Assembly: GCA_049967655.1 (NCBI GenBank) | Contig: JBMFSH010000005.1 | Location: 29,264 to 93,263, forward strand | Source: Acidobacteriota bacterium | Lineage (GTDB): Bacteria > Acidobacteriota > UBA4820 > DSQY01 | Direction: 5' to 3' | Length of the DNA stretch: 64,000 nt | Shown here: positions 1-3,000 of the stretch, piece by piece | Numbering within the stretch: the stretch's first letter is position 1 | Layout of the letters: each line of letters begins with the position of its first letter | Made by a program: the position numbers

Positions 1-3000
1 GGCACCAAGCCTGAGAGACCTTGGGGAGGGGCAACCCTCCCCGAAGTATTTTTCACGCCATCGAAGGCACGAGAAGGGGGGGCGAGAAGGGCGGGAGACG
101 GCGTAGGCCCGCCGCGAGAACGCGAGCGAAGAGCGAGCGTTCGCAGCGACGCGGGGCAAGCCGAGGGACCCGCCCCGGGAACCGTAGGCGGCCTTGAAAC
201 GGAGCCGCGAGACTCGCGAGCGGCGAGGCTTCTAGGCCGCGTAGGTTCGAGTCCCCCCTTCGGCACCAAGCCTGAGAGACCTTGGGGAGGGGCAACCCTC
301 CCCGAAGTATTTTTCACGCCATCGAAGGCACGAGAAGGAGAAGGGCAGGGAATCGCCCGGCGTTCAGGAGGTGGATTCCGGTGGCCGAGCCCCCAGCCGT
401 GAAGCAGCCGGAGGTAGGCCGTCCTACCCTGGGAAACTCGAGGGCGAAGGCGCCCCAGCAGTGTCGGCCAGCAGAGCTACATGACCATGCCGCCGTTGAC
501 GGAGAGTGTCTGGCCCGTGATGTACGCCGCGTCGTCGCTGAGCAAGAAGGCCACGGCGCACGCGATGTCCTCGGCGCTGCCGAATCGCTTCATGGGGATG
601 AGCGAGGCCATCTGCTCCTTCTGCTGCTCGGTGAGCTTGTCGGTCATAGCCGTGACGATGAAACCAGGGGCCACCGCGTTGCAGGTGATGTTGCGGCTGG
701 CCAGCTCGCGAGCGGTCACCTTGGTGAGCCCGATGATGCCTGCCTTGCTGGCCACATAGTTGGCCTGCCCCGCATTCCCCATGAGAGCTACCACGGAGGC
801 GATGTTCACAATGCGACCGAAGCGTTCGGCCATCATGGGTTTGAGAGCGGCCTGGGTGAGGTTGAAGCTGCCCGTCAGATTGACGGAAAGAACGGCATCC
901 CAATCCTCCGGTTTCATGCGCATGAGGAGCGCATCGCGCGTGATGCCCGCGTTGTTGACCAGCAGATCCAGGCGCCCGGCCTGTTCCGAGACCGCCTGGA
1001 CGGCCGCTTCGCACGAGGCGCGGTCGGAGACGTTGAGCTCCAGCGGGATGACATGCAGGCCTCGGGCCGACAGCGCTTGCGCGGATTGGGTCATGCCGGC
1101 GAGATTGAGGTCACCGCCGAAGACGCGGGCACCTTCGCTGGCCAGTTTCTCCACGATAGCGAGGCCTATTCCCTGGGCCCCTCCGGACACGAGCGCTACG
1201 CGATCTGAAAAACGAGCCATGTTCACCTCCCTCGGTGTGTCGGTGCAGCGTGGGGGCCTGCCCCCGATCAGCCCCGGAGCCCGTCGAGTGCCTTGTCGAG
1301 GCTCTGCGGAGACTCCACGTTCAGGAGCTTCCAATCCCGGTTGACCCGCTTGGCCAAGCCGCTGAGGACTGTGCCAGGGCCCACCTCCAGAATCGTATCC
1401 ACCCCCTGGCTTTGCAGGAAGAGCAGGGTCTCACGCCACCTTACGGGCGAATCCACCTGCGCGATGAGCTTGGCGCGCGCCGACGCCCCCTCGGTGGTGG
1501 GGGCGGCGTCCACGTTGGCCACCACGGGCCGCCTCGGATCCAAGAATGCGAGGGCTTCGAGCTCGGGCGTGAGGCGCTCGCGGGCGGGGGCCATGAGGGA
1601 GCAGTGGAATGGGGCCGAGACGGGCAGGAGGACGGCTTTGCGGCAGCCGAGCGCCTTGGCCGCCTCTACGGCCCTGTGGACGGCCTCGGCGTGGCCGGCG
1701 ATGACCACCTGGCCCGGGGCGTTGTCGTTCGCCGGGCTGACGACCTGGCCCTGGGCCGCCTGGGCGCAGGCCTGTCGGACCGCCTCGATCTCGATGCCCA
1801 TCAGAGCAGCCATAGCGCCCACTCCAACGGGGACGGCTTCTTGCATGAACTGCCCGCGATGGCGAACAATCCGCAAGGCTTCCGCCAAGGGAACAGCCCC
1901 GGCGGCCACCAAGGCGCTGTATTCGCCGAGGGAGTGGCCCGCGAAATAGGCGGGAACAAGGTCGGGCTTGACGCTCATGAGTGCGGCCCATGCCGCCAAA
2001 GAGACGGCCAAGACGCCGGGCTGCGTGTTTTCGGTGAGGTTTAGGGCCTCGGCTGGCCCCTCCCAGAGGAGCCTGCGGAAATCCGACTCCAACGCCGCGT
2101 CCGCCTGCGCGAACACCCCGGCGGACTCGGCGAAGGTTTCGGAGAGTTCCTTCCCCATGCCCACGTACTGAGAAGCCTGACCAGGAAAGACGACGGCGAT
2201 CTTCATGGACACCTCTAAGGCACGATAGGTGGTTTCAGAAGGGTTGCCCCCGCCGACGCGGTGCCCATCCACGCTCCCTACCAGCGTATCAATCCAGAGC
2301 CCCAGGTGAGACCGGCACCGAAGGCGGCGAAGAGAAGGATGTCGCCCGGCTGCACCCTCCCAGAGCGCACCAGTTCGTCCAGGGCGATGGGGATGGAGGC
2401 GGCGGAGGTGTTCCCGATGCGGTCGATGTTGAGGTATATGGTCTCGGGCGGCCAGCCGAGACGCTCGGCGACGGCGCTGATGATCCTCACGTTGGCCTGA
2501 TGCGGCACGAACCAGCGCACGTCCGCCGGGGTGAGGCCCGCCCGTTCGATGGCCTCACGGCAAACCGATTCCAGGGAGCGGACCGCGATCTTGAAGGTCT
2601 CGTTGCCCTTCATCTTGATCGTGTGGAGGTTGGCGTCGATCATGGCGTGGCTCACGGGGATCTTGGAGCCTCCGCCTGGAAGGGTAATGAATTCGGCCAT
2701 GGAGCCGTCGGCGTGGATGGCCGACGAGAGAAGCCCCCGTCCGTTTTCCTCGGCCGAGAGGATCACGGCTCCGGCTCCGTCTGCGAAGAGGACGCACGTG
2801 GCGCGGTCCTGCCAGTCCACGTACTTGGAGAGGACCTCAGCCCCAACCACGAGAACGTGGCGGGCGAGCCCGTTGCGGATGAAGCTGTCTCCGACGGTGA
2901 TGGCGTAGATGAAGCCCGAGCAGCCCGCCGCCATGTCGAAGGCGGCCGCCCTCTTGGCGCCGATCATGTGCTGGACGAAGCAGGCGGTGGAGGGGATGGG

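What a model noticed while it worked through the whole genome (the two positions that open the first line are those of the whole stretch)
1..268. Structured ~165-nt non-coding element that inserts at the T-loop of many different tRNA genes and duplicates their 3' en [...]
A ~165-nt element with no ORF sits behind tRNA-Leu(CAA), Leu(CAG), Lys and Trp here and is followed by a copy of the last ~24 nt of whichever tRNA precedes it, starting at GGTTCGA. It is family-wide, often in tandem arrays, targets at least 10 tRNA types and keeps a two-hairpin structure with compensatory changes.
Evidence so far: Copies C5:29346-29509, C2:81754-81919, C4:67157-67321, C39:19507-19648 (truncated). Found in 18 of 18 family genomes (2-23 matches each), 0 of 12 outside. 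In 20 regions fetched from relatives a tRNA precedes it in 18 and its own 3' end follows: Leu CAG/CAA/TAG/GAG, Lys, Trp, Sec, Arg, Asp, Gly. 17 of 44 predicted pairs show two-sided changes. No Rfam match.
(Added by a program. Inside this text positions count along the whole contig: contig position 29,264 is position 1 of the stretch shown here. "Call 12" and the like, gene names such as g00115 and contig names such as C1 are that model's own, and its searches are not shown. The text may have been shortened before it was handed on; [...] marks where a part breaks off. The agent that wrote the report below was given it as the finding of a first reader that could run no searches.)

Follow-up and report, generated by a model that had tools for sequence, protein, structure and literature searches.

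The report
Target-matching repeat cassette behind tRNAs
This is a small gene-less DNA cassette behind many tRNA genes of one bacterial family; it carries a mirror copy and a direct copy of its host gene's tail, like the long-unexplained tRNA-linked repeats of E. coli, and its anatomy suggests such repeats are self-targeting mobile elements.

Summary
Real, and larger than described. The unit (about 250 bp) is: tRNA tail, trailer/terminator, a target-specific antisense arm, a conserved two-arm core, then the tRNA tail again.

It occurs in 24 of 24 family genomes, 1 of 4 sister-family genomes and 0 of 140 other genomes of the phylum. Covariation beats all 500 shuffles. The antisense arm tracks each host tRNA at positions 59-67 only, so it is no acceptor-stem mimic. 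The leading GGTTC belongs to the core, so the true duplication is 18-20 nt, as in E. coli tRNA-linked repeats (TLRs, rtT). Those show the same antisense arm but no detectable core homology.

Targets follow a T-arm rule (18 of 21 versus 1 of 27). Precise empty/filled sites exist, and unrelated cores swap on one scaffold. A sister core uses the same design at protein-gene ends and at one gene start, antisense.

Best reading: a non-autonomous integrative cassette whose folded strand rebuilds its target site. The enzyme was not found, and no RNA run was available to test expression. The scan noted this layout before in other lineages. A new variant of a known, unexplained class.

The parts
1..7 (+). 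Last 7 nt of the upstream tRNA-Leu(CAA) tail, or of an earlier copy of it; the tRNA gene lies at contig C5:29083-29165, before an assembly gap
8..72 (+). Locus-specific trailer; nearly identical to the trailer behind tRNA-Leu(CAG) on C39, which has the same tRNA tail
21..44 (+). Intrinsic-terminator-like hairpin in the trailer
   Evidence: consensus match only
73..85 (+). Antisense arm: complementary to host tRNA positions 59-68, with a GA dinucleotide facing G57-A58 (tandem G.A form; other units have TC)
86..176 (+). Core left arm (P2), subfamily A; closing helix nearly invariant, interior covarying
177..248 (+). Core right arm (P3); its central GAACC pairs with the terminal GGTTC (244-248), which imitates tRNA positions 52-56 but is element sequence
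249..268 (+). Target-derived copy of tRNA-Leu positions 57-76, ending in CCA
262..338 (+). Exact direct repeat of window 1-77 (tRNA tail, trailer, second terminator-like hairpin at 282-305)
339..350 (+). Decayed start of a further unit (antisense arm mostly deleted, first bases of a core)
   Evidence: read; relatives keep more of this distal unit (L002, L085)
477..1220 (-). Neighbouring fabG, converging on the array; not part of the element
   Evidence: TIGR01830 over its cut-off

Best explanation
A non-autonomous, site-specific integrative mini-cassette of the tRNA-linked-repeat (TLR) design. The mobile unit is about 250 bp: tRNA positions 57-76, trailer (often a terminator), antisense arm, structured core. 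Shown: the purine-rich top strand is predicted to fold into a three-way junction with strong covariation. In it the antisense arm pairs with tRNA positions 59-67 and the core's central GAACC pairs with its own GGTTC, so one strand rebuilds a double-stranded look-alike of the host T-arm. The junction with host DNA lies between positions 56 and 59. Targets are the t(m)RNAs reading GGTTCGANNCCC. Inferred: a recombinase or nickase supplied in trans exchanges this folded site with the chromosomal T-arm and replication resolves it, much as for folded attC sites or phage CTX. The element's own tail completes the tRNA, and the old tail ends up downstream. Repeat integration and unequal crossing-over give arrays; recombination between the direct repeats gives precise loss and solo remnants; cores are exchanged between loci at their conserved ends. 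Speculative: new targets are gained through the constant part of the arm, and the variable bases adapt afterwards. Any RNA made by read-through is secondary.
For: Antisense arm: Watson-Crick pairing with own versus other targets is 0.97/0.33 at position 59, 0.77/0.26 at 64, 0.81/0.34 at 65, 0.58/0.28 at 66, 0.52/0.30 at 67. Over positions 59-68 it is 7.42 of 10 versus permuted 5.34 +/- 0.28, maximum 6.45 in 10,000 (96 units, 22 target types). Target rule: 18 of 21 matching G000 genes are family targets versus 1 of 27 non-matching, Fisher p 3e-9. Precise empty/filled pair at tRNA-Trp: G000 and G001 have a 247-bp unit that G002 and G003 lack exactly; one public contig also joins across these 247 bp (X5). 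Cores move, trailers stay: trailer identity is 0.43 between targets within a genome and 0.59 for the same target across genera; core A is 0.83 (up to 0.97) between targets within a genome; the nearest core sits at a different target for 25 of 43. One Trp scaffold carries cores A, B, a variant and an unrelated core D, and single arrays mix cores. Sister core C forms a full unit at G000 tRNA-Asp and uses the same design at asd, lpd, thiolase and radical-SAM gene ends. It also sits at the start of a nucleotidyltransferase gene on the opposite strand, with a new upstream region. Its antisense run is 8.4 versus 5.4, reached by 2 of 40,320 permutations (8 targets). At lpd the two copies of the gene end differ at 10 positions, all synonymous, as expected if the unit brought a gene end from another lineage. 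G-U cells 45 versus A-C 37: no RNA-type wobble bias.
Against: No enzyme or autonomous partner was found. Reverse transcriptase is in 8 of 25 genomes and IS110 in 9 of 30. Y1/RAYT-like proteins are in 23 of 25, but G000's three loci show only short GC-rich matches to the cores. No ORF-bearing variant appeared among 118 metagenome loci. There is no copy in phages or plasmids, and two viral pattern hits are unrelated sequence. No circular form was observed. The Trp trailer is homologous across genera, so the empty sites may be losses from an old insertion rather than never-filled sites. The arm fits its own target strictly best in only 24 of 90 units (best or tied in 62). How an arm first arises at a new locus is not shown. 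The antisense-orientation case is a single locus of a different core. The model needs every unit to be target-specific, which is unusual.
Confidence: 0.5

Rival explanations
1. A host-maintained structured RNA: read-through from the tRNA promoter gives a unit RNA that is cut out at the duplicated tRNA tail and acts as a protein sponge or processing regulator, as proposed for E. coli RrA/B/F.
For: All tRNA-linked units found are in the sense of the tRNA. Units at Trp and Gly(TCC) lie inside gene clusters. The top strand folds better than the bottom in 37 of 48 with RNA parameters. E. coli RrB is a processed 173-nt RNA that binds Hfq and CsrA (PMC8144298). A GA junction occurs only with a purine at position 59 (39 of 39), which fits selection on a tandem G.A structure.
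Against: Presence is patchy and cores are interchangeable. Many units sit behind a terminator-like hairpin. Pairing falls to background at 68-72, so it is no acceptor-stem mimic. The top-strand preference is stronger with DNA parameters (47 of 48). One sister-core unit lies antisense to an operon. PMC8144298 reports only modest phenotypes, and a CsrA-binder prediction score below 0.01 for the 19 tRNA-operon TLRs.
Confidence: 0.18
2. No dedicated enzyme: an old hairpin insertion is spread by host recombination (unequal crossing-over, gene conversion between cores), and the antisense arm is kept matched by template-switch correction of an imperfect inverted repeat.
For: Arrays expand and contract. 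Left and right arms occur in shuffled combinations (crude typing). Trailers are old and locus-specific. No partner enzyme was found.
Against: It does not explain the sharp junction at 56-59 shared by unrelated cores and by E. coli TLRs, the target rule, the persistence of the unpaired GA junction in 39 of 96 units, or compensatory change along the whole core.
Confidence: 0.15
3. An RNA-level mobile element: in the read-through transcript the arm captures the tRNA's own tail while the downstream copy completes the acceptor stem. The unit is looped out like a T-loop intron, excised as a CCA-containing or circular RNA, and re-inserted by reverse splicing or a reverse transcriptase in trans.
For: The minimum-energy fold of one intact tRNA-Leu plus unit (L028) has exactly this conformer. 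The looped-out segment equals the genomic unit.
Against: It is a single computed fold, and it follows from any direct repeat plus antisense arm. Reverse transcriptase is in only 8 of 25 genomes. There is no Rfam ribozyme match. One sister unit is antisense to its gene. The tRNA is complete without splicing.
Confidence: 0.12
4. Scars of ordinary integrase-bearing islands at T-loop sites, shrunk to a common remnant.
For: T-stem-region sites account for 1,836 of 3,919 Islander islands (PMC4383910). Some family loci also carry islands.
Against: Uniform length, covarying structure, an antisense arm and up to 98% core identity across different targets do not fit decay.
Confidence: 0.05

Closest known systems
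tRNA-linked repeats (TLRs) of E. coli: tyrT/tyrV 178-bp repeats, rtT/RttR (Rfam RF00391), RrA/B/F (as described in PMC8144298, citing Egan and Landy 1978 and Rudd 1999, neither seen)
   Same: Non-coding unit behind a tRNA with 18-19 nt of its 3' end repeated, one to five per locus, function unknown. Read directly from K-12: an antisense arm of 5-10 bp at Tyr, Pro, Lys, Ser and Arg loci (9 of 11 distinct contexts listed), the same TC/GA junction variants, duplicated terminators and a truncated last unit.
   Different: No detectable sequence homology: RF00391 gives 0 matches in G000, and the model built here has no significant match in 7 K-12 TLR loci (one weak hit, E 0.7, in a tRNA T-arm). The branch sits on the other side of the junction, so the core's GGTTC abuts the copy and makes it look 24-25 nt long. 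There are more target types (17 classes including tmRNA and Sec). I found no mention of the antisense arm or of mobility in the passages read.
Integrase-bearing genomic islands at T-loop/T-stem sites of tRNA and tmRNA genes (Islander, PMC4383910)
   Same: Intact tRNA, insert, displaced 3' fragment; crossover in the T-arm region; tandem arrays occur.
   Different: No integrase gene; far below the 2-kb Islander floor; target-specific antisense arm; one core family at many tRNA types.
Folded single-strand recombination sites: integron attC and phage CTX attP (PMC4792948, passages)
   Same: Structure conserved more than sequence; imperfect inverted repeat that could rebuild a duplex site; arrays of gene-less units; an enzyme borrowed in trans (CTX uses XerCD).
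   Different: No integron integrase link or dif-like site was tested or seen; the target is any gene matching the arm; the analogy is mechanistic only.
REP/REPIN and MITE repeats moved by RAYT (Y1) transposases (recalled)
   Same: Short, structured, multicopy, non-autonomous, lineage-restricted; Y1 proteins are present in 23 of 25 genomes.
   Different: No convincing core-like repeat beside G000's Y1 genes; 50-115 bp of target DNA is repeated, and each unit has a target-specific arm.
IS110/IS1111 bridge or seek RNAs (recalled)
   Same: Structured non-coding segment of similar size with target-matching bases.
   Different: The two target-matching parts cover the same stretch and pair with each other rather than with separate target halves; IS110 is in only 9 of 30 genomes.

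Membership tests
E. coli-type tRNA-linked repeat (design class) | Lies in a tRNA or rRNA operon, downstream of the gene | tested here: met
   every full A/B unit ends in a tRNA/tmRNA-type tail
E. coli-type tRNA-linked repeat (design class) | 3' end identical to the last 18-19 nt of the upstream gene | tested here: met
   62 of 84 copies match the upstream tail at 24 of 24 positions and 78 of 84 at 22 or more; the target-derived part starts at 57-59
E. coli-type tRNA-linked repeat (design class) | One to several tandem copies per locus | tested here: met
   arrays of up to at least four units
E. coli-type tRNA-linked repeat (design class) | Transcribed and processed to a discrete RNA (shown for rtT and RrB) | not testable with these tools
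   no RNA holder listed
Rfam RtT (RF00391) | Score above the 45-bit gathering threshold | tested here: not met
   0 matches at E <= 1 in G000, while the control E. coli scores; reverse test also negative
tRNA-integrated genomic island | Contains an integrase gene and is over 2 kb | tested here: not met
   units are 213-293 bp; criteria from PMC4383910
tRNA-integrated genomic island | Restores the split gene, leaving a displaced 3' fragment | tested here: inconclusive
   the layout fits and the lpd copies of sister core C suggest a replacement end; for tRNAs the two tails are mostly identical, so origin cannot be told
REPIN/RAYT system | Repeat flanks a cognate RAYT gene | tested here: not met
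   only 13-50 nt GC-rich matches in the flanks of G000's three Y1 loci (contigs short, other genomes not checked)
IS110 bridge RNA | Encoded in or co-occurring with an IS110 element | tested here: not met
   IS110 domain in 7 of 25 family genomes against the element in 25 of 25
attC/CTX-type folded site | Single-strand exchange by a tyrosine recombinase on the folded strand | not testable with these tools
   G000 has 5 tyrosine recombinases over cut-off, none linked to the units by any test here
tRNA-like (acceptor-stem mimic) RNA | Helix through positions 66-72 with a 4-nt CCA overhang | tested here: not met
   pairing at 68-72 is 0.30-0.33, equal to background 0.28-0.36

The most novel reading that the evidence does not exclude
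tRNA-linked repeats, here and in E. coli, are an unrecognised class of gene-less, re-programmable integrative elements. Each unit folds on one DNA strand into a branched structure that rebuilds its own attachment site from an antisense arm. A still unknown, probably widespread host or mobile enzyme then inserts it at whatever locus the arm matches, including protein-gene ends and starts. Changing about 10 bases of the arm and the carried gene end would retarget it.
Probability: 0.3. Interest if true: 0.88.

Novelty: new variant of a known kind. Interest (0 to 1): 0.62.

Why it matters
E. coli's tRNA-linked repeats have had no known function since 1978 (PMC8144298), and their trailing rrnB member sits in widely used plasmid terminators. 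This family is large and diverse enough to give rules: a junction fixed to tRNA positions 56-59, a target consensus, a covarying antisense arm, exchangeable cores, and a sister core acting on protein genes. These turn the question into direct experiments (does a unit circularise, does it integrate, which protein is needed, does changing the arm retarget it). A positive result would add a new base-pairing-guided integration mechanism. A negative one still explains a common source of broken assemblies and false tRNA fragments at tRNA loci.

Tried and rejected
Expression: no RNA holder listed. The 13 DNA holders had word shares of 0.13 or less; four were laid as contigs only, which cannot show ends or levels.

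Acceptor-stem mimicry: rejected. Homology to RtT or other Rfam families: none. The blastn hit in G030 (E 1e-3) was not supported by nhmmer or the model.

Partner enzyme by co-occurrence: reverse transcriptase 8 of 25, IS110 9 of 30, Y1 23 of 25 without linked repeats. The reverse transcriptase beside a Sec unit in G018 looks like a group II intron inserted in the trailer (domain-V look recalled). Autonomous ORF-bearing version: none seen among 118 metagenome loci, of which 78 of 124 motif matches had neither a full unit nor a nearby tRNA and were not examined further. None in phages or plasmids.

Helical phasing of unit length: not at 10.5 bp (p about 0.22). p about 0.01 at 10.0 bp is one of three periods tried on non-independent units and is not taken as a result.

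Horizontal transfer between genera: a 423-bp Ser(TGA) array is 97.9% identical in G002 and G024, but the two contigs also share another 537-bp block at 99% and G024 is 67% complete, so mis-binning is not excluded. Arms left over from a donor target: 12 units fit another target better by a run of 3 or more, mostly from one G-U or mismatch at positions 59-60, so they are not evidence.

RNA versus DNA from wobble bias: undecided. Bösl and Kersten 1991 is not held. Print searches that found no description of this family or of the antisense arm. The library lacks most subscription papers, including Rudd 1999, and the supplements of PMC8144298 were not opened; either may describe the arm.
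Full report
Observation. The element is real. blastn of window 83-246 against the genome gives four copies, behind tRNA-Leu(CAA), Leu(CAG), Lys(CTT) and Trp; three are followed by the host tail, and the C39 copy is truncated. The window begins just after an assembly gap of about 98 N that cuts the Leu(CAA) gene, so more units may be hidden there. Window 70-268 folds at z = -5.4, and Rfam has nothing near threshold. It is in 24 of 24 family genomes, in 1 of 4 sister-family genomes (G028) and in 0 of 140 other genomes of the phylum under strict filters. All 36 exact-pattern hits in the species-genome collection are titled Acidobacteriota/Acidobacteria or Thermoanaerobaculia.

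Data set. I fetched 60 regions around listed hits, not all matches. With earlier loci this gave 127 raw and 97 distinct full units. 17 of these come from named-collection loci that partly repeat the handle genomes; they were dropped for the tree and tables (80 units) but kept (96 units with enough upstream sequence). The 80 fall in 17 target classes, including tmRNA and tRNA-Sec. Relatives are not independent.

Anatomy. Each unit is tRNA tail, trailer, antisense arm, core, tail again; 213-293 bp, mostly near 250 (56 units). In the window the tail plus trailer (1-77) recurs exactly at 262-338 with a terminator-like hairpin in each. Over 59-68 it gives 7.42 pairs versus 5.34 +/- 0.28 permuted, never reached in 10,000 permutations. 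It is imperfect: own target strictly best in 24 of 90, best or tied in 62. Facing G57-A58 is TC (56), GA (39) or CA (1); GA occurs only with a purine at 59, though only three target types have a pyrimidine there. The consensus fold of 48 subfamily-A units is a three-way junction. 36 of 49 pairs change on both sides, covariation 0.404 versus 0.141 shuffled (0 of 500) and 0.03-0.09 slid; the structure came from the same alignment and the shuffle ignores kinship. Subfamily B (13 units) folds alike with a different left arm. G-U and A-C cells are 45 and 37, so the data do not choose RNA over single-stranded DNA; the top strand is purine-rich and the better folder in 37 of 48 (RNA) and 47 of 48 (DNA).

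Junction. In 22 of 80 units the letters equivalent to positions 52-58 differ from GGTTCGA, 17 with a compensating change in the core's central GAACC. The resident tRNA is canonical in all 17 of the 22 where it was visible. Position 59 follows the target. An unrelated core D at Trp begins its copy exactly at G57. So GGTTC is element sequence, the crossover lies between 56 and 59, and the true duplication is 18-20 nt.

Target choice and dynamics. Of 48 G000 t(m)RNA genes (52 calls less 4 set aside: three on tiny contigs, one doubtful), 18 of 21 reading GGTTCGANNCCC are targets somewhere in the family against 1 of 27 others (p 3e-9). The target list was assembled by hand, and a partial Pro unit in G004 was not counted. 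G000 also keeps solo remnants (arm with or without the core start) at Sec, Glu(TTC), Ala(CGC), tmRNA, Ser(TGA) and Gly(GCC). At Trp, 8 of 22 family loci carry a unit. G000 and G001 have 247 bp that G002 and G003 lack precisely, but the trailer is homologous across genera, so loss is as likely as gain for that pair. The same scaffold carries cores A, B, a variant and D, and arrays mix cores. Trailers go with the target and cores with the lineage: trailer identity 0.43 between targets in a genome, 0.59 for one target across genera; core A 0.83 (max 0.97) between targets in a genome; nearest core at another target for 25 of 43. The tree separates A and B (100/100), each at many targets. Of 61 loci, 21 end in a further trailer and arm, 35 near the CCA, 5 at edges (crude classifier).

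Sister core C. G000 tRNA-Asp has a complete unit with a different core, which has about a dozen further homologues away from tRNAs and occurs in 23 of 25 family genomes. Of the 13 further G000 hits inspected, five repeat a stretch of the neighbouring gene: the ends of asd, lpd, a thiolase and a radical-SAM gene, and the start of an A-adding nucleotidyltransferase gene on the opposite strand. In a second set, 10 of 17 full cores had a duplication. The arm is again target-specific (8.4 versus 5.4; 2 of 40,320 permutations). At lpd the two gene ends differ at 10 synonymous positions, including the stop codon; at the thiolase they also differ in residues; at the other three they are identical. This is the best hint that a unit supplies a replacement gene end and works at the DNA level, but it concerns core C, not the finding's core.

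Mechanism. I favour (0.5) a gene-less integrative cassette whose folded top strand rebuilds a duplex copy of its target and is inserted by an enzyme in trans through strand exchange and replication. The analogy is attC and CTX attP (PMC4792948, passages). Fold prediction, covariation, junction, target rule, core exchange and precise indels are shown; circles, strand exchange and the enzyme are inferred. Against it: no partner was found, and the origin of a new arm is unexplained. Rivals are a functional RNA (0.18), host recombination with hairpin correction (0.15), a T-loop-intron-like RNA route suggested by one computed conformer (0.12), and island scars (0.05).

Comparison. The closest known class is the E. 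coli tRNA-linked repeats: 22 copies at ten loci, 18-19 bp of the upstream gene's end repeated, no known function (PMC8144298; passages and the first part of the Discussion read). rttR is described as of unknown mode of action (bioRxiv 10.1101/2024.07.17.603846, passages). K-12 sequence shows the same arm (5-10 bp in 9 of 11 contexts), TC/GA variants, duplicated terminators and truncated last units, but no homology either way. It resembles T-arm islands in layout but fails the integrase and size criteria (PMC4383910, passages). PMC9897764 (passages) treats tRNA fragments without mentioning TLRs. Egan and Landy 1978, Rudd 1999 and Bösl and Kersten 1991 were not seen. Searches found no account of this family or of the arm, within an open-access library. 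Earlier notes of this scan report the same layout in Patescibacteria, actinobacteria, spirochaetes and archaea, and at protein-gene ends. I held the TLR reading before looking; the protein-gene notes were in mind when I followed core C.

Verdict. A new sequence family and topological variant of a known but unexplained class; interest 0.62, because the rules found here make the old TLR question directly testable.

Noticed in passing
G000 C7:53334-53495 (L329) and about 12 other places, e.g. L324-L328: Second repeat family (core C) with the same antisense-arm and duplication design at tRNA-Asp, tRNA-Gly(GCC) of relatives, several protein-gene ends and one gene start; in 23 of 25 family genomes.
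   Followed up: partly
L325 (G000 C33, lpd 3' end): The two copies of the last 25 codons differ at 10 positions, all synonymous; the upstream, functional copy has the more AT-rich codons, as if imported.
   Followed up: partly
L315, L317 (tRNA-Trp of G021, G009); L365 (tRNA-Ser of G028): Further unrelated cores (D and another) whose copy starts at G57, closer to the E. coli topology; D-like sequence also occurs at Ser loci.
   Followed up: partly
L074 (G001, tRNA-Arg ACG); L064: The arm matches the resident tRNA while the downstream copy looks like the tail of another Arg tRNA.
   Followed up: no
G000 behind tRNA-Gly(CCC), Gly(TCC), Tyr, Sec, tmRNA, Ser(TGA); L091: Purine-rich 7-9 nt short tandem repeats follow several tRNAs, sometimes with an inverted partner; also noted by scan entry e1-4440845.
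   Followed up: no
L112 (G018 C406): A 462-aa reverse transcriptase with a group II intron-like 3' end sits directly upstream of a Sec unit, apparently inside its trailer.
   Followed up: partly
L125/L363 (G024 C271) and L084/L364 (G002 C43): A 97.9% identical two-unit Ser(TGA) array in two genera; in G024 it follows a half tRNA at an island end. Transfer or mis-binning is undecided.
   Followed up: partly
G000 C14:1-1100: A reverse-transcriptase fragment and a Y1 (RAYT-like) gene lie side by side at the contig start.
   Followed up: no
G000 C140, C145: Tiny contigs with extra tRNA-Ile/Ala unlike the C1 copies; possible contamination.
   Followed up: no
window 477-4463: Fatty-acid gene cluster on the minus strand (fabG confirmed; fabD, fabH, plsX, rpmF by recalled look of the translations) converging on the array.
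   Followed up: partly
and one search hit lists: Many copies lie at contig ends or beside N gaps, so these arrays break short-read assemblies and are probably undercounted.
   Followed up: no
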